Shown here: one piece after another, positions 21,154-29,691 of the stretch
Position numbering within the stretch: the first letter of the stretch is position 1
How the letters are laid out: every line of letters begins with the position of its first letter
IMG/VR virus record: IMGVR_UViG_2974506496_000001
Coordinates: 32,001-96,000 of that record
DNA from: a virus
Taxonomy: Duplodnaviria; Caudoviricetes
Direction: 5' to 3' (one strand)
DNA length: 64,000 nt
Made by a program: the position numbers and the translations under genes
Notes under the pieces: model-generated
The model's input: the letters and a program-made list of their open reading frames with translations, nothing else
What the model was told of the DNA's origin: nothing
Databases searched by the model: none

Positions 21154-21705
21154 ATGGAAAAGATTACGAGCGATACGATCCTTGCTAAGTTACGTGAGGT
21201 GGCAGAAACAAACAAAGAAAACCAACATCATAAACTCCGCTCAATAAGCCAAACCATGGCGTACAACATTGAAGCGATCGTCGAGCTGATTGCGTTATCG
21301 GGTGAGATGCACCTTGACCTGCTTGATCGACACAAGGTTGATGCGATCATAGAGCCGCATTACAAAGGCAATCAACGGGCTTATAGTCGATTGAGCCATA
21401 CCGCCTCTATTCATACGGGCATGGAATACCTTGCCGGCAACGCACACATCTATACCAACGACGACGGTAAAGAAGCGGTACGAATCATCTGCACCTTTAA
21501 ATTTAAGCGCGACTTCCTGCAACCTAGCTTATTACCTAAGGTACTTCACTACTGCCTGCGGGAGCTTAAGCCGCAACTTGCTGACAGTGGTGCTGTCCTC
21601 TTCCACACACAGGGTGAGCTGGAAGACCCTCGTCTTAAAGGCATTCCGGGCTGGCACGTCGACGCCAACGTCCGTGATAACTCCATTGTCATTACTTTAC
21701 GTTAA
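21154..21705 (+). CDS. hypothetical protein
   Basis: GGAG SD. Confidence 0.75.
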   Translation: MEKITSDTILAKLREVAETNKENQHHKLRSISQTMAYNIEAIVELIALSGEMHLDLLDRHKVDAIIEPHYKGNQRAYSRLSHTASIHTGMEYLAGNAHIYTNDDGKEAVRIICTFKFKRDFLQPSLLPKVLHYCLRELKPQLADSGAVLFHTQGELEDPRLKGIPGWHVDANVRDNSIVITLR

Positions 21706-21715
21706 GGAATCATAC

Positions 21716-22426
21716 ATGATCGTTGTTGTTGTTGATACTGAATCGACTGCCTTGGATGAACTCGCGGGTATTCTTAGTTTGTCCGCTATTCGCACTAACG
21801 TGGCTGACATGAGTTGCATCAAGCACCTGATCGGTGTGCACCAAGCCGGCAAGACGCATGACGACATCTTCCATGCCGTATTAAACCTCAATGAACAATA
21901 CGTGATGGGTCGTACCTTCTTGCAAAGCACGCAGGATTGGTGGATGAAGAAAACCACCCCGGCGGCGAAGGCTTCAGTAACCGGACCAACGCAGTCTGCA
22001 AAAGATGCTTTGACAGCATTTGTGGCTTTCATCGAAAAGGCCATTGAGGCGACGATTAACGAACGCGGGGAGAAAGCGAAGGTCCAGCTGTACTACCGTG
22101 GCGACTTCGATGCTAAAGCCATTGCGTCCCTGGCAAAAGCGGTGGGTGTTGAACTCCCGTATATCTTCAATCAGAACAAAGAGATCCGCACATATATCGA
22201 TGCCAAGCTGGACACGGATATCGGTTATATCCCGTGGCTCGGTTACCCAGAAGGACTGGGGCGTCATAGCTCACTCGATGATGTTCTAATCGATGGCTTC
22301 GAGATGGCGGTGGCCTATCGCATCAATCACCTCGAAAAGTTCGATAAAAAGTCGGTGCCGGGCGAGATCGCCAAACTGAAAGAAACGTACCCTGTTCCGG
22401 AGAAAACCCATGCAAAATCTAAATGA
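21716..22426 (+). CDS. DEDDh 3'-5' exonuclease (phage exoribonuclease-like)
   Basis: VDTES, T.DWW, RGDFD, EIRT, HSSLDD motifs. Confidence 0.8.
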   Translation: MIVVVVDTESTALDELAGILSLSAIRTNVADMSCIKHLIGVHQAGKTHDDIFHAVLNLNEQYVMGRTFLQSTQDWWMKKTTPAAKASVTGPTQSAKDALTAFVAFIEKAIEATINERGEKAKVQLYYRGDFDAKAIASLAKAVGVELPYIFNQNKEIRTYIDAKLDTDIGYIPWLGYPEGLGRHSSLDDVLIDGFEMAVAYRINHLEKFDKKSVPGEIAKLKETYPVPEKTHAKSK

Positions 22427-23132
22427 CCGTATCTTTGCCAATTATGATGGTTACATTGAAGCTATTGATGCGCATTTTAAACCTACCTATCAACTGCAGC
22501 TGGCTGAGCAAGTCATCCCGGGTGAGCAGATGGATAAGCTTGTAACCTGGATGGACCACAACGCCCATGTCAAGGGTGCAACCGTCTACCTGATGGAGTT
22601 GGTGCCTGATCTCGATAAACCGCATCCTGCACAATCAGAGATGCGTGTGTTTATTGCACTCGGTATGTTTAATCGTGAAGTCAACCCTGATTTGCCTTAC
22701 TGGTGTCATGTACATCGCCATTACCCGGTTAACCTCGCTGTCGACTTGATTGTTACTGACCTGCAAGGCGTTCCTGTAACCCATGCCGTTCTGACTGCGT
22801 TTAAGTCATTTGATCGAGCGCGTACCTACAGGGATAATCTCGGCGGTAAAGGCGGGCATCAACCGCATCACGAAATCCATACTGGCATTATTGACCAAAG
22901 TGGTAAGGTGATCTTCGAAGCCTACGGGAATATCAACTGGCATACCAAGAATGCCATTCGTCTGCTGGCCGAACGACAGATCCTGCAGGAAGATACCGAG
23001 TTGTCAGCGGTGTGGTTACTGGCGGGTTTAAAAGCAGGTGTCAACTGGAAAGTCGAAGACCATGTTGACATCATGAAAGCAATTGATACTTTCCGTCCGA
23101 GGAATACCCATGATTTTAACGGCTATGTTTAA
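22410..23132 (+). CDS. hypothetical protein
   Basis: GGAG SD, overlaps upstream gene end. Confidence 0.75.
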   Translation: MQNLNDRIFANYDGYIEAIDAHFKPTYQLQLAEQVIPGEQMDKLVTWMDHNAHVKGATVYLMELVPDLDKPHPAQSEMRVFIALGMFNREVNPDLPYWCHVHRHYPVNLAVDLIVTDLQGVPVTHAVLTAFKSFDRARTYRDNLGGKGGHQPHHEIHTGIIDQSGKVIFEAYGNINWHTKNAIRLLAERQILQEDTELSAVWLLAGLKAGVNWKVEDHVDIMKAIDTFRPRNTHDFNGYV

Positions 23133-23874
23133 GAAGTGCTTTGGTGCTTCATCTGTCTATAAAGAAGATGACGGCAGCACGCGTATTACCGCCGACCAGT
23201 ATGAGCTTACGCTGGGGCGATCCTACAACCCTAAGCTTAAGCGTAAGGTAGGTCGGGGATTTGGCTTCTATGTCGAAAATGGTGAGAAGCTCGAGTTCGT
23301 CCTGCGGGGTTACTGGTTTGTGTTGATTGCCTGGAGCAAGAAGCGCAAATCACTCAAGTGGGACGAAGTGGAGAATGCACCGACCTACGGCTTCAATGTT
23401 GTCGACTCTGACTTAGCGATCTATCTGGGCAACGAATCCGCTAAGTCAGACAAACACATCAGCATGCGTAGTCGCAGCAAATACATCCCCCTGCCTTGGG
23501 CCTGGGTCTTCCATAAGCGTGAAGTGTTAACCACCCGTGACACCTGGGCTGATGTCAAAGAAGGTGCGCTGTCTCAAGAGTGGTCGTTCCCCGCCACATA
23601 CATCACCAAGCACAATGAAGTGCAAGAGTTGATGGTCGAAGCGAAGATGGAGCGCATGAGTTGGCGCCTGGCATGGCTGCCTTGGTTCGCGCCGGTTAGC
23701 AAGAAAGACCGCTCGGTAAGTTACAAGTACCACGGGAACGGCGGTAACGGAGTTGGTCACGATGCCAGTGGGTGGAAAGGCGGGGTCATCGGCGGTGGCA
23801 TTATCATGCGGGACAATGAACACAACCCGAAAGAAACATTCGACCGTTTAATTAAAGAGCAGCATTACGGCTAA
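23125..23874 (+). CDS. hypothetical protein
   Basis: ORF in gene run. Confidence 0.75.
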   Translation: MFKKCFGASSVYKEDDGSTRITADQYELTLGRSYNPKLKRKVGRGFGFYVENGEKLEFVLRGYWFVLIAWSKKRKSLKWDEVENAPTYGFNVVDSDLAIYLGNESAKSDKHISMRSRSKYIPLPWAWVFHKREVLTTRDTWADVKEGALSQEWSFPATYITKHNEVQELMVEAKMERMSWRLAWLPWFAPVSKKDRSVSYKYHGNGGNGVGHDASGWKGGVIGGGIIMRDNEHNPKETFDRLIKEQHYG

Positions 23875-23886
23875 GAAGGAAAGCAC

Positions 23887-25038
23887 ATGCGTCAGTATTT
23901 GGATGGGATTCGTTACATCTTTGAGAACGGGTCACAACGAGGGGATCGCACCGGGGTAGGTACGTTGTCGGTGTTCTCGATGAAGCAGACTTATGATCTG
24001 CGTCTGGGATTCCCACTGGTCACCAGTAAGAAAGTGCGTATCGATTTTATTATCGAAGAGCTCATCTCTTTCCTGTCGGGTAATCCCGATATGCCGGGTG
24101 TGGGTATCTGGGATGATTGGCGTGTCAAAGACGAAGTCTCTCGTGAAGTCCCGTTAGAGAACCACGAGCGTTTAAAACTCTGGGTTGAGAAGTCGGACCT
24201 GAAGTATAACGTTGCTTACCTTCAACTCAATGCGATGGGTTCTGTCGAAGCGGGTCATCGTTTCCTGGATGAGCAAGGGATTCCACGTAACAGAAAAGAA
24301 GTACTGGTAGCAGAAGGTGCACTCAATGCACCCTATGGGCCAGCGTGGCGTGCGTGGAAAGGTCGTCAGGGCGAAGTGCATGATCAGATCAGTTATCTGC
24401 TCAAGCTGCTTAAAAACAATCCTACGAGCCGTCGTATGCTATTGTCTGCCTGGGACCCGGCGAATATGCCGGATGAGTCTATCAGTCCGCAGGATAACAT
24501 CATTGATGGCAAGCCACCTCTGACTCCGTGTCATTGGGCGTTTGAGCTGTACACTGACGAAATCCTGGCAGAGGAACGCCTTGATTGGGTCGAAGCTAAT
24601 GCACCTAGTCTCTGGGAAGACTACAATGATCGTTCAGGACGTGGTCAGTGGTTAGGCGACACAGACAGTAAGCGCCTTCATGAATTCCTGGACGAAGCCG
24701 GCGTACCGAAGTATTACCTGGATCTGAAGTATCACCAACGTTCCTGTGACTATATGGTTGGCGTGCCGTATAACATCGCCAGCTATGCGGTGTTGCAGCA
24801 CATGTTCGCCGCCACCTGTAACATGATCCCGCGGATACTGGAAGCGGATATGACTAACATCCATATCTACAACTTCCACAAAACCAATGCGGTCATGCAG
24901 GCCAGTCGCAGCCCACGCGCACTACCCACTCTGAAGGTACTCGCCGCTCACGATAAGTTGGAAGACTATACGTTGGAAGACTTTGAACTCGAAGGTTATG
25001 ATCCGCATCCTTTTATTAAATATGAAAGAGCGGTCTGA
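23887..25038 (+). CDS. thyA: thymidylate synthase with two insertions
   Basis: DRTGVGT, FPLVTSKK, IWDDW, SRR, LTPCH, QRSCD..VGVPYNIASY, HIY. Confidence 0.96.
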   Translation: MRQYLDGIRYIFENGSQRGDRTGVGTLSVFSMKQTYDLRLGFPLVTSKKVRIDFIIEELISFLSGNPDMPGVGIWDDWRVKDEVSREVPLENHERLKLWVEKSDLKYNVAYLQLNAMGSVEAGHRFLDEQGIPRNRKEVLVAEGALNAPYGPAWRAWKGRQGEVHDQISYLLKLLKNNPTSRRMLLSAWDPANMPDESISPQDNIIDGKPPLTPCHWAFELYTDEILAEERLDWVEANAPSLWEDYNDRSGRGQWLGDTDSKRLHEFLDEAGVPKYYLDLKYHQRSCDYMVGVPYNIASYAVLQHMFAATCNMIPRILEADMTNIHIYNFHKTNAVMQASRSPRALPTLKVLAAHDKLEDYTLEDFELEGYDPHPFIKYERAV

Positions 25039-25070
25039 TCCACTGGTGCGTTGAAGGGAGCACAACGGTA

Positions 25071-25436
25071 ATGAAGAGAGAGTCCAGTTACACCCTGGTC
25101 TTTGGGGAAGGTAGTACTGAAGAAGATGTCAACACCCTGCGTGAGATGGTGTCACACATGCGGGGGTTGACTGGGTTGTCGCAGCTGGGGGCGTTTGAGG
25201 TGTTCGTTACCCATTATGAATTGCAACGTAAAGACGCAGGGCTAATCACCAGTAATCTTCCGGTGAATGCACAGTCGTTGTTTGATGTCAGTGATCGACA
25301 GAACTGGCTGACACCGCTGTTCACTTCCCGGGGGTTAGTGGCGTGTGATTTGTTGTTGTTACTGAAGCAAGGCAAATGGACCGGAGAACACCTCAAGGTG
25401 ACCTTTCGGGTAAAGGGTATCAGGGCGAAAGCATAA
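25071..25436 (+). CDS. hypothetical protein
   Basis: ORF with GGGAG SD. Confidence 0.7.
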   Translation: MKRESSYTLVFGEGSTEEDVNTLREMVSHMRGLTGLSQLGAFEVFVTHYELQRKDAGLITSNLPVNAQSLFDVSDRQNWLTPLFTSRGLVACDLLLLLKQGKWTGEHLKVTFRVKGIRAKA

Positions 25437-25437
25437 C

Positions 25438-25470
25438 GCATACGGAGGGGTCATTCCCTCCGCTATGCCG
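25438..25470 (+). terminator. GCATA-hairpin-CTATGCCG element
   Basis: CGGAGGG/CCCTCCG stem, extendable by GCATA/TATGC. Confidence 0.75.
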
Positions 25471-25509
25471 ATTAAGTTTTTAACAAAGTTTACTGCAGAT
25501 CTTTTCAGA

Positions 25510-25519
25510 CCTATATCAC
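25510..25519 (+). promoter_or_regulatory. putative early promoter variant CCTATATCAC
   Basis: Variant of recurrent motif with the same AGAC prefix and N4-GTGA suffix. Confidence 0.55.
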
Positions 25520-25568
25520 GTCGGTGAATAACCTTTCACTAATTAACCAATCCGTAAGGAGTTTTATC

Positions 25569-26945
25569 ATGGCTGCATTAAAATCTAAAGTTGAACTGTT
25601 TCACTGGTATCAGGAACTGAAAACTGAATTTAAAACCGGCAAGATTACCGTGTTCGAATTTGAGCGGCAAGTGCTCAGCGAAATTCTTTCCCTGACCGAT
25701 ACTGGTAAAACACCATCTACTGCCAAAATCAGTCTGGTAGTGGACATCCTTAATTCTGTGGTTTTTGATCATGTGTTTACCGCAGACGGTATCATTGACC
25801 TGGACAACATGCTCGCTCGTGAACACGTACGCAACATTTCGGAATTGACGGCAGCACGCAATAACTTTATTACCATACAAGCCCAGGCCCGTCTGAACAA
25901 AGAAAAGGAACAGACTGCGAAACCAGCAGAGCAGAAGGCGTTTGCCAAGTTTCCAACGAAAGAAGAGCTCGAATATTGGGTTAATGCCAGAAAGCTATTC
26001 CGTTATGGTAACCCCAATACGCTCGGCACTGAAGCATACCAGGAGGTTGTCAAATACTGGCATCTGGTCGATAAATATCTGGGTACATTAAAACTGGAAC
26101 TGGATCACACCGACCCTAACTACGTCGATAACATCCTGTTGATTGACTACTTTGTATCGTTGGTCGCCAAGCAAGAGGTTCCTGAGGAAGAACGCAGGCA
26201 TCTGAAAGACACACTTAGCAGTCTATATGCGTGCCCCATTAAAACCCCACACATCGATGCATTTGTCGAACGTGACCAACACCCCCTTCCAGTTAAGCCA
26301 AAACAACCACCCATCGCGCAACAAGCCATCGACCGCGCTATTGCCTGGCGTGAAGAGGAAACCAAAACAAACCATCAGCAAAAAGACATATTACGAGAAT
26401 TCGCCGATCAATACTGTCCGGTAATGGTGGCCAAGCAACATGCCACTCAGCAGTTGTTTGATTTCGTTGCTCGTGCGGTGAAACGTGTCTTGACCGCCAT
26501 TGCTCAGCCAAACAACCCGGAAGACGCCGAGATGCTGGCAAAAGGTCATGCCATCAACATTCTCAATGTTAAGCATGGTGTAATTGGTGTCAGTACCACG
26601 ATTACCAGAAACGGTCTGGTCAAGTTACGCATCTTCGCTGAACGTGAACTATGTAACGAGGACTACGGTATTCCGACTCTGTCGTATAATCAAGTCCGTC
26701 AATCACCTCATGCAACGTTCAGCATACCAATGCCGGCGCTGATAGATGGGTTCATTAACATGTGGGATATCCCTAATCAGGCCCCTCGCCATATGCATAA
26801 TAGCGTAGGCGGTATGTTGGGTAATCCCTATCCGTTACAGCAGCTTGATGGTTTGATGTCAGCTATTGCAAGAGAAGCAGCCGAGTACGGCGTTACGCCT
26901 ACTTATGGCATGATCGAAGACAGCCTTATCGTTGTGCTGCATTAA
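25569..26945 (+). CDS. hypothetical protein; N-terminal domain shared with 27009
   Basis: WY..LK....TG.I....E..V...L.SL in both. Confidence 0.8.
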   Translation: MAALKSKVELFHWYQELKTEFKTGKITVFEFERQVLSEILSLTDTGKTPSTAKISLVVDILNSVVFDHVFTADGIIDLDNMLAREHVRNISELTAARNNFITIQAQARLNKEKEQTAKPAEQKAFAKFPTKEELEYWVNARKLFRYGNPNTLGTEAYQEVVKYWHLVDKYLGTLKLELDHTDPNYVDNILLIDYFVSLVAKQEVPEEERRHLKDTLSSLYACPIKTPHIDAFVERDQHPLPVKPKQPPIAQQAIDRAIAWREEETKTNHQQKDILREFADQYCPVMVAKQHATQQLFDFVARAVKRVLTAIAQPNNPEDAEMLAKGHAINILNVKHGVIGVSTTITRNGLVKLRIFAERELCNEDYGIPTLSYNQVRQSPHATFSIPMPALIDGFINMWDIPNQAPRHMHNSVGGMLGNPYPLQQLDGLMSAIAREAAEYGVTPTYGMIEDSLIVVLH

Positions 26946-26952
26946 TTCACAC

Positions 26953-26982
26953 GGGGAGGTTTCCCTCCCCCTTTTATTTTTT
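26953..26982 (+). terminator. intrinsic terminator
   Basis: GGGGAGG/CCTCCCC plus T tract. Confidence 0.75.
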
Positions 26983-27008
26983 AATTAACCTACTGTGAGA
27001 ATTTAACC

Positions 27009-27710
27009 ATGAACAAAGAAACTTATACTACCTGGTACAATGGATTAAAAGAAAGATTGGCGACTGGGCACATTAATCAGGAACACTACGAGACACTTAT
27101 TGTTGACAATCTAAGTTCATTGATTACTCATTTCTTCAATAGTCGATACGACGATGGTCATATGTCTCTGGAGGAGCATTTTGCGTTAGTTAATCATTAT
27201 TTCGAACTGGTTGCTGATGCAGAAATATCAGAACGCAGTGCCATGCTCATGGTACGTTCTGTAGCTAGCAGTATTCAAAAGCTACCAGCGGCTAAAGCCT
27301 TCGCAGAGAAACATAACACTCCGGCGCCGTCAATTAAAGAAATTCTTGGTAGTCGACCTGGTTTACTGCGTAAGCATGCTGCCAGCACGACCGAGAAGAT
27401 GATAGGGTGTCCGGTGATCACCCAGGCCAACGAACCTGAGAACGAAGTAACCATTGACTTACCCTGGAAATTGGCATTGCACGTTTACAAAGGGTTCCTG
27501 GTAAAGGCGCTGATGTCAAAGCACGGATATAAATACAGTGATGCGTATAACTACATTACTGATCATCAGAACAAATACGACGAACTCTTGGCAGAAGTCC
27601 TCAACAACATTATTGCTAATGAGGAATCGCATCTGGTGTCGGTAGGTGGCGGCATCACTGCAGCGGGTACTGGTCTGGTGGTAAGCGGGATTATTAAGCC
27701 GGAGGAGTGA
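27009..27710 (+). CDS. protein containing an RNA polymerase beta'-like fragment
   Basis: aa ~108-206 parallels beta' region C/dock: G.LRK.....VIT...LPWKLALHVYK.FL...L. Confidence 0.55.
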   Translation: MNKETYTTWYNGLKERLATGHINQEHYETLIVDNLSSLITHFFNSRYDDGHMSLEEHFALVNHYFELVADAEISERSAMLMVRSVASSIQKLPAAKAFAEKHNTPAPSIKEILGSRPGLLRKHAASTTEKMIGCPVITQANEPENEVTIDLPWKLALHVYKGFLVKALMSKHGYKYSDAYNYITDHQNKYDELLAEVLNNIIANEESHLVSVGGGITAAGTGLVVSGIIKPEE

Positions 27711-28270
27711 TGAAAGGAGAGATAGAGACACGCTTCAGAAGACACTACGGCAACCACATTAAACGGGGTAGTGATATCGCAGTGCCTTTATACCACATTA
27801 GTCTACAGAATGACTTGGAGGGGCTATGGCGACCTAAAGCCCCTGACTCGCCATTTGATATTCCGAAGAAACCCAACATCATTACTGAAATGCCGCTCCC
27901 GCGTATCTGTGTAGCACCATCTATCGAACAGTGCTTCTGGGCAATCTATCCCAATATCTCTAAGCTCTTTGAAGAGGAAGAATACGCAGCGGTTTGTTTT
28001 GCGGTTTATCAACCGATTCTGCATGCCGGTATTGCTGTCGTGGATACCAGTACGTTAACGCAATGCCGACTAGTGCACGATGCACATATTACCGGCGAGC
28101 ATTGGTTACTTAGTGATACCACCATGTGTGTGATCGACTTTATTCAGGTTAATAACACCTCACACGGCGAGTTCGTAAAGTTCCATCCGTTTAATACCCC
28201 GGTTGGTAACGAATGGGAGCTCGCCCCTAAAAATGTTGTTTATCATTCACTTAAATTAACGGAGTTGTAA
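27707..28270 (+). CDS. putative ADP-ribosyltransferase-like protein
   Basis: LYHIS, RICVAPSI..C, VY.P, DA..TGEHW arrangement. Confidence 0.4.
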   Translation: MMKGEIETRFRRHYGNHIKRGSDIAVPLYHISLQNDLEGLWRPKAPDSPFDIPKKPNIITEMPLPRICVAPSIEQCFWAIYPNISKLFEEEEYAAVCFAVYQPILHAGIAVVDTSTLTQCRLVHDAHITGEHWLLSDTTMCVIDFIQVNNTSHGEFVKFHPFNTPVGNEWELAPKNVVYHSLKLTEL

Positions 28271-28274
28271 ATCC

Positions 28275-28919
28275 ATGGTAACTGCTAGAAAAGCTAATAA
28301 GACCTTAGGTGAGCACGCAGTGGCTCATGAGGCAGTAACACGCTTAGGTAGCAACAAGAAAGTCAAACCAGTTAAACCGCTTTGGACACTGGAGAACATC
28401 GAGGACAATCTGGTTGGTCAAGGCATCCTTGCCTACTTGAAACGCCACACGTCGTTATCGATCCGTGATATCAACACCGCGGCTAACCGCCTGACGAAGA
28501 TTGCTGATTCAGATATAAAGGAAGGGAAAGCGCGTGATTACGTGGCACGAGTTATTGGGTACAACAATTACGACGCTCTCAACGTCACCGTTCGTGCAGC
28601 GGTACCTGTGCGCAATCATGTACAACGTCGTAAAGCAAATCAGCCGGTCACAGAGTTGTTGATAGAAGACGAAGAACTGCCGCCGGTAACACGTACTGAA
28701 ATCAACCCCTTGGTGATGTTAGCCCTACAGCGTGAGATCTCTAAACGCGGCTTTCGTCTACTGGGTAAGAACTACCGGGCTTTCGTTAACAAGGATAACC
28801 CCGAGCACACCTTTACGTTGATGCAGGCGTATAACTACCTTGCCAAACAACTGGGTTATCCGGATTATCACTCTATGCCCCGTCAATACCCAATCATTAA
28901 CTTGCGCTACGTCGATTAA
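28275..28919 (+). CDS. hypothetical protein with a duplicated small helical domain
   Basis: ARDYVARVIGYNNYDAL and AYNYLAKQLGYPDYHSM. Confidence 0.7.
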   Translation: MVTARKANKTLGEHAVAHEAVTRLGSNKKVKPVKPLWTLENIEDNLVGQGILAYLKRHTSLSIRDINTAANRLTKIADSDIKEGKARDYVARVIGYNNYDALNVTVRAAVPVRNHVQRRKANQPVTELLIEDEELPPVTRTEINPLVMLALQREISKRGFRLLGKNYRAFVNKDNPEHTFTLMQAYNYLAKQLGYPDYHSMPRQYPIINLRYVD

Positions 28920-28941
28920 CCTATTGTAAGGAATAAAGAAC

Positions 28942-29691
28942 ATGACAACGACTTTCCCGAAAGAGATGAATGCTGCTTTCCATCCTGATAACGAACAAAC
29001 CACCCAGCTGTGCAAAACGATCCAGCAGATCAGCGGGGTGGAGATCAAACGTGTACATGTGGTGATGGCGATCCACCATTACAAACAAAACGATGCGGCA
29101 CATCAGCCTGACCACATGCTGGCGGTCTTAGCAGAAGCAGCCCACATCATCCAGTCGTTTCCTGACCTGGAGAAATGGCGCACCCAGATCATGTTAGGGT
29201 GTCTGTTCCATGACACCCACTGTCACATCGATCGGGATATGCACCACCTGCTAGGCGCCGAACATGCCCAAGAGGCATTACTGGAGTATGCGTGTGGTTA
29301 TGGGATGTCACGTGCGGATGTCTACCTGATCAGTCAGGCCGTACTGGAGCATCGGGCTTCCTGGAAGTACCCGCGTATTAACCCTGTATCCAACGCTGTG
29401 GCGTCTGCAGATCGTGGCTACCCTGATCTAAAGAAATACATCCGTCGTGCTGTACAGTACCGTTACAAGCGCATGGCAGTCATCAACATGAACACCATCA
29501 TCGATGAGTCGATCGAACACATGGTAGAGAAGTTCGGTGATGGCGGTTATGCCTGGGAAAGCTACCCGACGTATGCAGCGGTGATGCACGGTGATGCGAT
29601 TCAACAAGTGAAGCAACAACTGCGCAGTAAAGAAGGAAAGGCACAGCTCAAGGAGTACGCTGAACTCCACTTTGATGAGTGGGTAGAATAA
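28942..29691 (+). CDS. HD-domain phosphohydrolase
   Basis: AHQPDH, LFHD, HHLLGA, VLEHRAS, ASADR. Confidence 0.85.
   Translation: MTTTFPKEMNAAFHPDNEQTTQLCKTIQQISGVEIKRVHVVMAIHHYKQNDAAHQPDHMLAVLAEAAHIIQSFPDLEKWRTQIMLGCLFHDTHCHIDRDMHHLLGAEHAQEALLEYACGYGMSRADVYLISQAVLEHRASWKYPRINPVSNAVASADRGYPDLKKYIRRAVQYRYKRMAVINMNTIIDESIEHMVEKFGDGGYAWESYPTYAAVMHGDAIQQVKQQLRSKEGKAQLKEYAELHFDEWVE

What the first reader, a model, noticed from the sequence alone, without database searches (positions are those of the whole stretch)
27330..27626. Isolated RNA polymerase beta' fragment embedded in an accessory protein
Seen: aa ~108-206 of 27009..27710 read SIKEILGSRPGLLRKHAAST..MIGCPVIT...IDLPWKLALHVYKGFLVKALMSKHG...YDELLAEVLNNII. 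By eye this parallels bacterial beta' [30 protein letters not shown]...GLPKKMALELFKPFIYGKL...DILDEVI (region C/switch 2 plus dock). It stops before NRAPTLH and has no NADFDGD. The N-terminal domain is shared with neighbouring 25569, which follows an early-promoter motif. Inference: a captured RNAP module reused as a decoy or regulator.
Basis: partly seen in the sequence, partly recalled or inferred. Interest (0 to 1): 0.72.

Follow-up and report, generated by a model that had tools for sequence, protein, structure and literature searches.

The report
Truncated dead copy of phage RNA polymerase subunit
An Erwinia jumbo phage carries, besides its complete RNA polymerase genes, a short, fast-evolving but clearly selected extra copy of the middle third of one polymerase subunit that has lost the catalytic part and gained an almost invariant glycine-rich tail, so it probably works as a binding or regulatory protein rather than as a polymerase.

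Summary
ORF 27009-27710 (233 aa) of this Agricanvirus jumbo phage (99.6% identical to Desertfox and Deimos-Minion) is homologous to the N-terminal beta' subunit of the phage non-virion RNA polymerase (phiKZ gp55 family). Support: PHROG E 4e-17, PDB phmmer E 1.6e-5, profile-profile E 2.9e-23, and a dock-domain structural match (Z 9.5, rmsd 1.6 A).

It has no Zn ribbon, no lid segment, no RNPxL motif and no NADFDGD. The framing needs correction. The homology covers aa 31-208, so this is a truncated paralogue, not a fragment embedded in an unrelated protein.

Both phage polymerases have complete beta'N genes elsewhere, so the protein is extra. It is confined to Agricanvirus-like phages (12 sequences including the window's, 55-98% identity, 233-270 aa). 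It evolves much faster than the real subunit (55% versus 96% identity to phage AH06), yet it is under purifying selection.

Its 28-residue tail (ESHLVSVGGGITAAGTGLVVSGIIKPEE) is nearly invariant (dN/dS 0.01-0.09) and occurs nowhere else except in a decayed copy of this same gene.

The gene is translationally coupled to an ADP-ribosyltransferase-fold gene and lies 3 kb from an Acb3 anti-CBASS gene.

A function as an interface mimic or regulator is inferred, not shown. No paper I found describes it. One GenBank record labels a homologue as beta'. Another window of this scan flagged the same stretch.

The parts
26953..26980 (+). Terminator-like hairpin GGGGAGG-TTTC-CCTCCCC followed by a T-run. 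It closes the upstream gene (25569-26945), so the beta'-fragment gene starts a new unit.
26983..26990 (+). AATTAACC motif 18 nt upstream of the ATG. It may be a promoter or leader element of this phage. The same motif lies 20 nt upstream of gene 25569.
   Evidence: 19 copies on the + strand against 2 on the - strand of the genome, most within 30 nt upstream of start codons. It is not conserved upstream of the homologues in AH06, L007 or L008.
27009..27710 (+). CDS of the 233-aa truncated, catalytically dead paralogue of nvRNAP beta'N (phrog_11276; DM_73 in Deimos-Minion).
27018..27122 (+). N-terminal motif, aa 4-38 (TYTxWYxGLKxRLxxGxI..YE). It is shared with the N-terminus of the neighbouring 458-aa protein.
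   Evidence: hhalign probability 70%, E 4e-5
27099..27632 (+). Region homologous to beta'N, aa 31-208, matching own beta'N 176-387. It holds pre-lid helices, clamp-helix-like helices, switch 2 (PGLLRK..PVIT) and the dock (LPWKxALHVY..). The lid block of about 21 aa is deleted.
27330..27626 (+).
27624..27707 (+). Nearly invariant glycine-rich C-terminal tail, aa 206-233 (ESHLVSVGGGITAAGTGLVVSGIIKPEE). It replaces the RNPxL and NADFDGD half of the double-psi beta-barrel.
   Evidence: and (96% column identity; 11-16 synonymous against 3-6 non-synonymous codon differences in the last 34 codons; dN/dS 0.01-0.09; unique in the genome).
27701..27707 (+). Shine-Dalgarno GGAGGAG for the downstream gene, formed by the last codons (P-E-E) of the fragment gene. 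The downstream ATG at 27710 overlaps the TGA stop by one base.
   Evidence: The same arrangement occurs in AH06 and L008; in L007 it serves an inserted 105-aa ORF.
27710..28270 (+). Downstream 186-aa gene with a predicted ADP-ribosyltransferase fold. It is translationally coupled to the fragment gene.
   Evidence: AF2 pLDDT 87; nearly all top structural hits are ARTs, Z 3-5.9; Atlas: Arr-ms 0.94; conserved H29, Y80/Y100, E130.

Best explanation
ORF 27009-27710 encodes a non-catalytic, truncated paralogue ('pseudo-subunit') of the N-terminal beta' subunit of the phage's non-virion RNA polymerase. It keeps the middle third of that subunit: pre-lid helices, the clamp-helix-like pair, switch 2 and the dock. 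It has lost the Zn ribbon, the lid and the catalytic half of the double-psi beta-barrel, and it has gained an almost invariant glycine-rich tail. These points are shown.

Inferred: it cannot be part of an active polymerase. It most likely acts by protein binding, presenting beta'-type docking surfaces plus the new tail to a partner. In the real enzyme the clamp helices and dock are where the sigma-like fifth subunit and initiation factors bind. The candidate partner is therefore a factor that normally docks on beta'N, or the product of the coupled downstream ART-fold gene. The effect would be to modulate transcription or host takeover during infection.

The identity as a dead, selected paralogue is about 0.9 likely. 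The interface-mimic or regulator mechanism is about 0.35 likely.
For: Homology and extent.

Missing parts: the four Zn-ribbon Cys (two invariant, two nearly invariant), R396-N397-P398 and the DxDGD motif are invariant or nearly invariant in 33 full-length beta'N sequences. All are absent from the short protein. The invariant beta'N Arg before VIT(S) is Cys in the window's protein and varies within the family.

The protein is extra. The complete nvRNAP beta'N matches phiKZ gp55 with E 1.6e-67. The vRNAP beta'N-like ORF has its own switch 2, TRYPIT and GGDYDGD.

The gene is functional, not decaying. Twelve sequences including the window's (55-98% identity, 233-270 aa) have no frame breaks. dN/dS is about 0.1-0.2 where computable and 0.01-0.09 in the tail. 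The dock helix and the tail are the best conserved parts.

It is acidic (pI 5.8, net charge -7), so a protein partner is more likely than nucleic acid.

Published phiKZ structures place the sigma-like gp68 on gp55, with its N-terminal domain on the two clamp helices (PMC8287921, PMC7618050).

The setting is accessory and conflict-type. The fragment is 55% identical to AH06 while the true subunit is 96% identical. An Acb3 anti-CBASS gene lies 3 kb upstream. An ART-fold gene follows with a coupled start.
Against: No binding or expression data exist. It is not named in the main text of the crude-lysate mass spectrometry paper on RAY and Deimos-Minion (a search for 'gp73' found nothing), and that survey was shallow.

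The fragment is only about 21% identical to the phage's own beta'N. Its clamp-helix-like part is among the less conserved segments (67% column identity). That argues against faithful mimicry of the real subunit.

The AF2 model is poor for switch 2 and the tail (pLDDT 24-45).

The most conserved element, the tail, has no counterpart in beta'N by profile comparison. The key function may therefore have nothing to do with polymerase surfaces.
Confidence: 0.5

Rival explanations
1. Two-gene module. The beta' fragment is the partner of the downstream ADP-ribosyltransferase-fold enzyme. It could be an adaptor that brings the enzyme to an RNA-polymerase-related target, or a substrate-like neutraliser that restrains it, as antitoxins do for ART toxins.
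For: The stop and start codons overlap, and the downstream Shine-Dalgarno lies inside the fragment's last codons in the window, AH06 and L008. The downstream protein has an ART fold with conserved H, Y and E residues. Judging by matching contig lengths, the two genes co-occur on at least six shared contigs of the clade, and also on L008. T4 Alt and ModA show that phage ARTs target RNA polymerase (PMC7824862).
Against: In L007 a 105-aa ORF separates the two genes. The decayed copy on L010 goes straight from the fragment to the 214-aa gene. Distant homologues of the ART-fold gene occur in other phages with no beta' fragment next to them. No binding prediction could be run.
Confidence: 0.2
2. Membrane- or assembly-targeted protein. 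The invariant glycine-zipper-like tail (G214, A218, G222, S226 on one helical face) is a tail anchor or homo-oligomerisation element that places the beta'-like domain at a membrane or in a higher-order assembly.
For: There is a 19-21 residue uncharged stretch at the extreme C-terminus with a small-xxx-small periodicity. It is nearly invariant despite many synonymous changes.
Against: The Kyte-Doolittle 19-residue maximum is 1.48, below the usual 1.6 threshold. The summed Hessa scale gives +4.1 kcal/mol, which is unfavourable for insertion. AF2 gives no helix there. In P0007 the tail is followed by 25 more residues.
Confidence: 0.12
3. Genuine polymerase subunit. The fragment supplies in trans a piece that one of the phage's split RNA polymerases lacks.
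For: Jumbo-phage beta and beta' subunits are naturally split into several polypeptides (PMC7598289). One GenBank record (AH06_78) names the homologue 'DNA-directed RNA polymerase subunit beta''.
Against: The nvRNAP beta'N is complete over gp55 residues 21-494. The vRNAP beta'N-like ORF has its own switch 2, dock-length spacer, TRYPIT and GGDYDGD. The fragment evolves about ten times faster than the true subunit (55% against 96% identity to AH06). It is absent from the nearest other Erwinia, Salmonella and Proteus relatives, whose beta'N is about 60% identical.
Confidence: 0.03
4. Functionless remnant of a duplicated or captured beta'N gene on its way to loss.
For: It is truncated at both ends, has an internal deletion, lacks catalytic residues and diverges fast. 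It is not named in the main text of the lysate proteome paper.
Against: The open frame and length are kept in all twelve sequences, across 45% amino-acid divergence. Synonymous sites are saturated while pN is 0.23-0.32, and the tail has dN/dS of 0.01-0.09. For contrast, a truly decayed copy with a frameshifted neighbour exists on L010.
Confidence: 0.05

Closest known systems
phiKZ gp55 family: N-terminal beta' subunit of the Chimalliviridae non-virion RNA polymerase (phrog_2987; PDB 7OGP/8QUE chain A)
   Same: The two are homologous over aa 31-208 (E 2.9e-23). They share the switch-2 motif G..RK..VIT and the dock motif LPW plus helices, and the dock superposes at 1.6 A rmsd.
   Different: The fragment is half the length. 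It has no Zn ribbon, no lid block, no RNPxL and no DxDGD. It has a novel invariant Gly-rich tail. It evolves much faster and occurs as a second, clade-restricted copy beside the true subunit.
Bacterial RNA polymerase beta' (E. coli RpoC residues about 290-420: clamp helices, rudder, switch 2, dock)
   Same: It has the same structural region. The phage's own beta'N residues 255-448 align to E. coli beta' 292-473. The fragment model matches M. tuberculosis beta' with Z 7.0.
   Different: No Pfam RNA_pol_Rpb1 domain reaches significance on the fragment. It lacks everything needed for catalysis.
Phage proteins that control transcription by occupying polymerase or sigma interfaces (for example T4 AsiA on sigma region 4), and phage ADP-ribosyltransferases acting on RNA polymerase (T4 Alt, ModA)
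   Same: It is a small, non-catalytic phage protein in an accessory region next to an ART-fold gene, with a plausible role at a polymerase interface (background from PMC7824862).
   Different: The known factors are not derived from polymerase subunits. Here the candidate regulator is itself a polymerase-subunit paralogue, and no target is known.

Membership tests
nvRNAP beta' N-terminal subunit (phiKZ gp55 / phrog_2987) | Significant sequence homology to the family | tested here: met
   E 4.1e-17; E 1.6e-5 to 7OGP_A; hhalign E 2.9e-23
nvRNAP beta' N-terminal subunit (phiKZ gp55 / phrog_2987) | N-terminal Zn-binding ribbon (four Cys: C72 and C90 invariant, C74 and C87 nearly invariant in 33 members) | tested here: not met
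   The alignment starts at own beta'N residue 176, and no Cys cluster is present in the 233-aa protein.
nvRNAP beta' N-terminal subunit (phiKZ gp55 / phrog_2987) | RNPxL motif and catalytic DxDGD loop of the double-psi beta-barrel | tested here: not met
   The protein ends in ESHLVSVGGGITAAGTGLVVSGIIKPEE. R396, N397, P398 and the D435/D437/G438/D439 motif have no equivalents.
nvRNAP beta' N-terminal subunit (phiKZ gp55 / phrog_2987) | Lid segment (YLPxPxKxLxVxE..) between the pre-lid helices and the clamp helices | tested here: not met
   A gap of about 21 columns in the short family at this block.
nvRNAP beta' N-terminal subunit (phiKZ gp55 / phrog_2987) | Dock-domain fold | tested here: met
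   Z 9.5, rmsd 1.6 A, 58 residues against 7OGP_A 311-369.
nvRNAP beta' N-terminal subunit (phiKZ gp55 / phrog_2987) | Assembly into the five-subunit polymerase | not testable with these tools
Pfam RNA_pol_Rpb1_1 / RNA_pol_Rpb1_2 (cellular beta') | Hit above the gathering threshold | tested here: not met
   No Rpb1 family is listed for the fragment at E<=1. In the whole genome PF00623 hits only the full-length copy.
Tail-anchored membrane protein | C-terminal segment hydrophobic enough to span a membrane | tested here: inconclusive
   KD19 maximum 1.48 (<1.6) and summed Hessa +4.1 kcal/mol. Only simple scales were used, with no dedicated predictor.
ART toxin with a cognate neutralising partner (two-gene module with the downstream gene) | The adjacent, translationally coupled gene has an ADP-ribosyltransferase fold | tested here: met
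   The Z scores are only 3-5.9, but nearly all the hits are ARTs.
ART toxin with a cognate neutralising partner (two-gene module with the downstream gene) | The pair is conserved wherever the ART gene occurs | tested here: not met
   Distant homologues on L011 and L012 have no beta' fragment beside them. L007 has an ORF inserted between the two genes.

The most novel reading that the evidence does not exclude
The protein may be a natural 'half double-psi beta-barrel' carried on a beta' clamp/dock scaffold. By eye, the chain ends near the pseudo-two-fold boundary of the beta' barrel: strand PVIT, the dock insertion, then HLVSV-GGG-ITAAGTG-LVVSGII in place of ..[23 protein letters not shown]. 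The invariant Gly-rich strands could complete a barrel or sheet with a second copy or with a partner. That would make a polymerase-interface mimic that traps the sigma-like fifth subunit, or that directs or restrains the coupled ADP-ribosyltransferase. It would be a new class of phage transcription or takeover regulator built from a polymerase subunit.
Probability: 0.15. Interest if true: 0.78.

Novelty: new variant of a known kind. Interest (0 to 1): 0.5.

Why it matters
Jumbo (Chimalliviridae) phages run their own split RNA polymerases. How these enzymes are assembled, imported into the phage nucleus and switched between gene classes is still open.

A selected, catalytically dead paralogue of the beta'N subunit offers a concrete handle on that question. 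It retains the surfaces where the sigma-like subunit docks and carries an invariant new tail. It could reveal a regulator, an assembly or import competitor, or a partner of an ADP-ribosylating takeover enzyme.

It also shows that a polymerase core subunit can be recycled into an accessory protein. Erwinia phage RAY, a close relative, has already been studied by GFP-fusion localisation (PMC10299810), so the idea can be tested there.

If the protein is only a fast-evolving accessory gene of unknown partner, the finding is a modest annotation improvement: 'hypothetical protein' becomes 'inactive beta'N paralogue'.

Tried and rejected
- **Foldseek of the whole model against PDB.** There was no hit at E<=0.001. 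The best was phiKZ nvRNAP 8QUE_A at E 0.21, with many beta' chains among the weak rows. The domain-level VIA search gave the clear dock match.
- **Tail as a degenerate [12 protein letters not shown] segment.** It is plausible by eye. hhalign of the tail alone against beta'N found nothing collinear (E 0.43, at the wrong place). The idea is kept only as speculation.
- **Tail as a module shared with other proteins.** The only other hit, P0012 (E 1e-13), is an artefactual gene model. It lies over a decayed phage fragment in a 4.7 Mb contig. There is no second copy in the phage genome, and the Atlas gave nothing.
- **Short hits in the big search as other natural truncated forms.** P0013, P0016, P0018, P0041, P0045, P0063, P0080 and P0149 all run on into RNPSL/NADFDG. 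They are cut pieces of full-length genes.
- **The 458-aa neighbour as another beta' derivative.** hhalign against beta'N gave probability 0.2%. Only a 35-residue N-terminal motif is shared with the fragment.
- **Origin by tree.** The short family forms one long branch. It is not sister to the phage's own beta'N, and its placement is unreliable (an earlier treekit run gave no answer).
- **Pfam, NCBIfam and PADLOC.** None gave anything meaningful for the fragment.
- **Mass-spectrometry paper supplements.** They hold no entry for DM_73 or ANH52171.

Full report
**What the window is.** Megablast of window 25000-29000 finds six Erwinia amylovora jumbo-phage records at 99.1% identity or more (Desertfox, Deimos-Minion, MadMel, Rebecca; genus Agricanvirus). 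The window is G000:C1:32001-96000 of a 271,182-base virus record. Erwinia phage RAY is a nucleus-forming (Chimalliviridae) phage with two multisubunit RNA polymerases, one virion-borne (vRNAP) and one non-virion (nvRNAP) (PMC10299810); PMC6690015 places RAY in this phage family.

**Checking the observation.** It is phrog_11276 ('unknown function'). It also hits phrog_2987 ('RNA polymerase beta subunit') at E 4.1e-17, aa 54-205 to profile 226-368 of 478.
- phmmer against all PDB chains finds phiKZ nvRNAP gp55 (7OGP_A) at E 1.6e-5, aa 111-204 to residues 292-385.
- tblastn against phage genomes finds full-length beta'N genes of Noxifer, AgentSmith, Phabio and others over the same stretch.
- I built a family alignment (A1, 12 sequences) and searched it as a profile against 1.8 billion representative proteins. 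There were 228 hits at E<=1e-3. Apart from the family's own representative and P0012, the listed hits match at the position of this region in proteins mostly 370-550 aa long. Eight of the nine shorter hits I inspected run on into RNPSL/NADFDG and so are pieces of full-length genes; the ninth is P0012.
- Profile-profile comparison with 33 full-length beta'N sequences (A2) gives probability 99.5% and E 2.9e-23. It aligns aa 31-208 with residues 176-387 of the phage's own beta'N.
- The AlphaFold2 model has mean pLDDT 70. It is high for aa 1-110 and 151-205 and low for 116-150 and 205-233. It superposes on 7OGP_A residues 311-369 with Z 9.5 and rmsd 1.6 A over 58 residues. It also matches M. tuberculosis beta' with Z 7.0.

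The resemblance is real homology, not chance.

**Anatomy.** The phage's own full-length copy (L003:1453-2937, 495 aa) matches phiKZ gp55 over residues 21-494 (E 1.6e-67). Its residues 255-448 align with E. coli beta' 292-473. Mapped through this copy, the short protein has the following parts.
- aa 4-38: a short N-terminal motif shared with the neighbouring 458-aa protein (hhalign probability 70%, E 4e-5).
- aa 31-68: helices that precede the lid.
- The lid block (about 21 aa, 'YLPxPxKxLxVxE') is deleted.
- aa 69-105: a helix pair at the position of the clamp helices.
- aa 116-140: switch 2 (PGLLRK...PVIT).
- aa 146-205: the dock (EVTIELPWKxALHVYxGFLVKxL...).
- aa 206-233: the tail ESHLVSVGGGITAAGTGLVVSGIIKPEE, followed by the stop.

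Absent are the first 175 residues with the four-Cys Zn ribbon, the RNPxL motif and the DxDGD loop. All of these are invariant or nearly invariant in the 33 full-length sequences. The invariant Arg before VIT(S) is Cys in the window's protein and varies within the family.

'Embedded in an accessory protein' is not, because three quarters of the chain is beta'N.

**It is an extra copy, not a missing piece.** A phrog_2987 search of the whole genome finds only the full-length gene at 183985-185421 and this short one. A beta'N profile with filters off also picks up ORF 127808-129661. That ORF has its own switch 2 (GKRGILQQKWGRRR..NVIT), TRYPIT and GGDYDGD, which makes it the vRNAP beta'N. Both polymerases are therefore complete without the fragment.

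**Distribution and selection.**
- Homologues of similar length number eleven clusters, 55-98% identical and 233-270 aa. Most come from contigs of 89-288 kb (two from shorter contigs of 1.6 and 30 kb), and the phage AH06 record is among them.
- Gene order is kept in AH06, L007 and L008: ThyA, a 130-aa gene, a gene of about 455 aa, the fragment, the 187-aa gene, and so on.
- tblastn finds no short form outside the seven Agricanvirus records. The next relatives (pEa_SNUABM_37/48, Salmonella SA002, Proteus phage 10) have a beta'N about 60% identical but are absent from the fragment's hit list.
- Between the window phage and AH06 the true beta'N is 96.2% identical, whereas the fragment is 55% identical. 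The fragment is thus a fast-evolving accessory gene.
- It is nevertheless under purifying selection. Synonymous sites are saturated (pS 0.68-0.81) while pN is 0.23-0.32, and dN/dS is about 0.1-0.2 where computable.
- Conservation is uneven. Column identity is 0.63-0.67 for the clamp-helix-like and switch-2 parts, 0.78 for the dock and 0.96 for the tail.
- In the last 34 codons, 11-16 differ synonymously and only 3-6 non-synonymously between genomes. The tail's dN/dS is 0.01-0.09. The constraint is therefore on the peptide, not on the DNA.
- Only the last codons (CCG GAG GAG) also serve as the Shine-Dalgarno GGAGGAG of the next gene, whose ATG overlaps the stop.

**What the tail is not.**
- It is unique in the phage genome.
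- The one outside hit, P0012, is a gene model laid over a decayed, frameshifted piece of Agricanvirus-like DNA of about 750 bp inside a 4.7 Mb contig rich in reverse-transcriptase genes.
- It shows no profile similarity to the collinear RNPSL segment.
- It is not convincingly membrane-spanning: KD19 is 1.48 and the Hessa sum is +4.1 kcal/mol.
- AlphaFold gives it no structure in the monomer.
- By eye its pattern (LVSV-GGG-I..AG.G-LVVSGII) parallels ..[21 protein letters not shown].., which would end the protein at the half-way point of the double-psi beta-barrel. That is conjecture.

**Surroundings.**
- A terminator-like hairpin with a T-run (26953-26980) closes the upstream gene.
- The motif AATTAACC lies 18 nt before the fragment's ATG and 20 nt before the ATG of gene 25569. 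Genome-wide it occurs 19 times on the + strand against 2 on the - strand, mostly within 30 nt upstream of start codons. It is not conserved in front of the orthologues.
- The downstream 186-aa protein folds confidently (pLDDT 87). Almost all of its structural neighbours are ADP-ribosyltransferases, including Scabin, TreX, Arr, pertussis S1, ParT, DarT and Tpt1, at Z 3-5.9. The ESM Atlas points to Arr-type enzymes. H29, Y80/Y100 and E130 are conserved.
- More distant homologues of this ART-fold gene sit in other phages without any beta' fragment.
- A 214-aa gene of unknown function follows, then an HD phosphohydrolase-like gene.
- Three kilobases upstream lies a clear Acb3 CBASS inhibitor (PF25187, E 8e-62).

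The neighbourhood looks like a host-takeover or counter-defence region.

**Mechanism.**
- Shown: this is a truncated, catalytically dead, selected paralogue of nvRNAP beta'N with a novel invariant tail. It is additional to complete polymerase genes and is coupled to an ART-fold gene.
- Inferred: it acts by binding.
- In phiKZ nvRNAP the sigma-like gp68 contacts gp55, and its N-terminal domain sits on the two clamp helices (PMC8287921 and PMC7618050). In cellular polymerases the clamp helices bind sigma factors (same passage of PMC7618050); that the dock likewise receives initiation factors is from my own knowledge.
- The fragment keeps these elements, is acidic (pI 5.8), and has relaxed the switch-2 basic residues. 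I therefore favour an interface mimic or regulator.
- Against this, its similarity to the phage's own beta'N is low (21%), and its clamp-helix-like part is variable. The dock helix and the tail are the likely business ends, and the partner could equally be the coupled ART-fold enzyme.
- The rivals (a true subunit, a remnant, a tail anchor) are weighed in the structured fields.

**Novelty.** I found no paper that describes this protein. PHROGs lists it as unknown. Most GenBank records call it hypothetical, and one (AH06_78) labels it beta'. Another window of this scan flagged the same stretch (e1-5943740). I class it as a new variant of a known kind: an inactive, truncated paralogue of a jumbo-phage RNA polymerase subunit.

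Noticed in passing
window 23110-23874 (+): The ORF just upstream of thymidylate synthase is a clear member of Pfam PF25187 'CBASS inhibitor Acb3' (E 8.2e-62, full length). It is annotated only as hypothetical in Deimos-Minion (DM_69).
   Followed up: partly
window 27710-28270 (+): This 186-aa protein has a confident AF2 model whose structural neighbours are almost exclusively ADP-ribosyltransferases (Z 3-5.9). H29, Y80/Y100 and E130 are conserved. Distant homologues occur in other phages, for example after an SNF2 helicase on L011.
   Followed up: partly
whole genome; in the window e.g. 26983-26990 and 25541-25548: The octamer AATTAACC occurs 19 times on the + strand and 2 times on the - strand of the 271-kb genome. 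Most copies lie 0-30 nt upstream of start codons. It is a candidate promoter or leader element of this phage.
   Followed up: partly
L010:7290-8036: A 4.7 Mb contig of assembly GCA_054859325.1, flanked by reverse-transcriptase genes, holds about 750 bp of decayed Agricanvirus-like DNA. It comprises the 3' end of the beta'-fragment gene followed by a frameshifted homologue of the 214-aa gene. This is either an old insertion of phage DNA or an assembly artefact.
   Followed up: partly
L001:2775-4769 (phage AH06) versus window 23887-25038: The thymidylate synthase gene is intact in the window phage. In AH06 it is annotated in two pieces separated by an HNH homing endonuclease gene.
   Followed up: no
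window 21431-22426 (+): This ORF has a Pfam Rv2179c-like 3'-5' exoribonuclease domain (E 2.7e-13).
   Followed up: no
G000:C1:127808-129661 (outside the window; L013): This is the probable vRNAP beta'N. Its catalytic loop reads GGDYDGD and it has TRYPIT in place of NRAPTLH. Pfam RNA_pol_Rpb1_2 and the phrog_2987 search do not detect it; only a filter-off profile search does.
   Followed up: partly
window 25569-26945 and 27009-27122: The 458-aa neighbour shares a roughly 35-residue N-terminal motif (WYxGLKxxLxxGxI..FE) with the beta' fragment. The rest of that protein has no detectable relatives outside the clade and no similarity to beta'N.
   Followed up: partly
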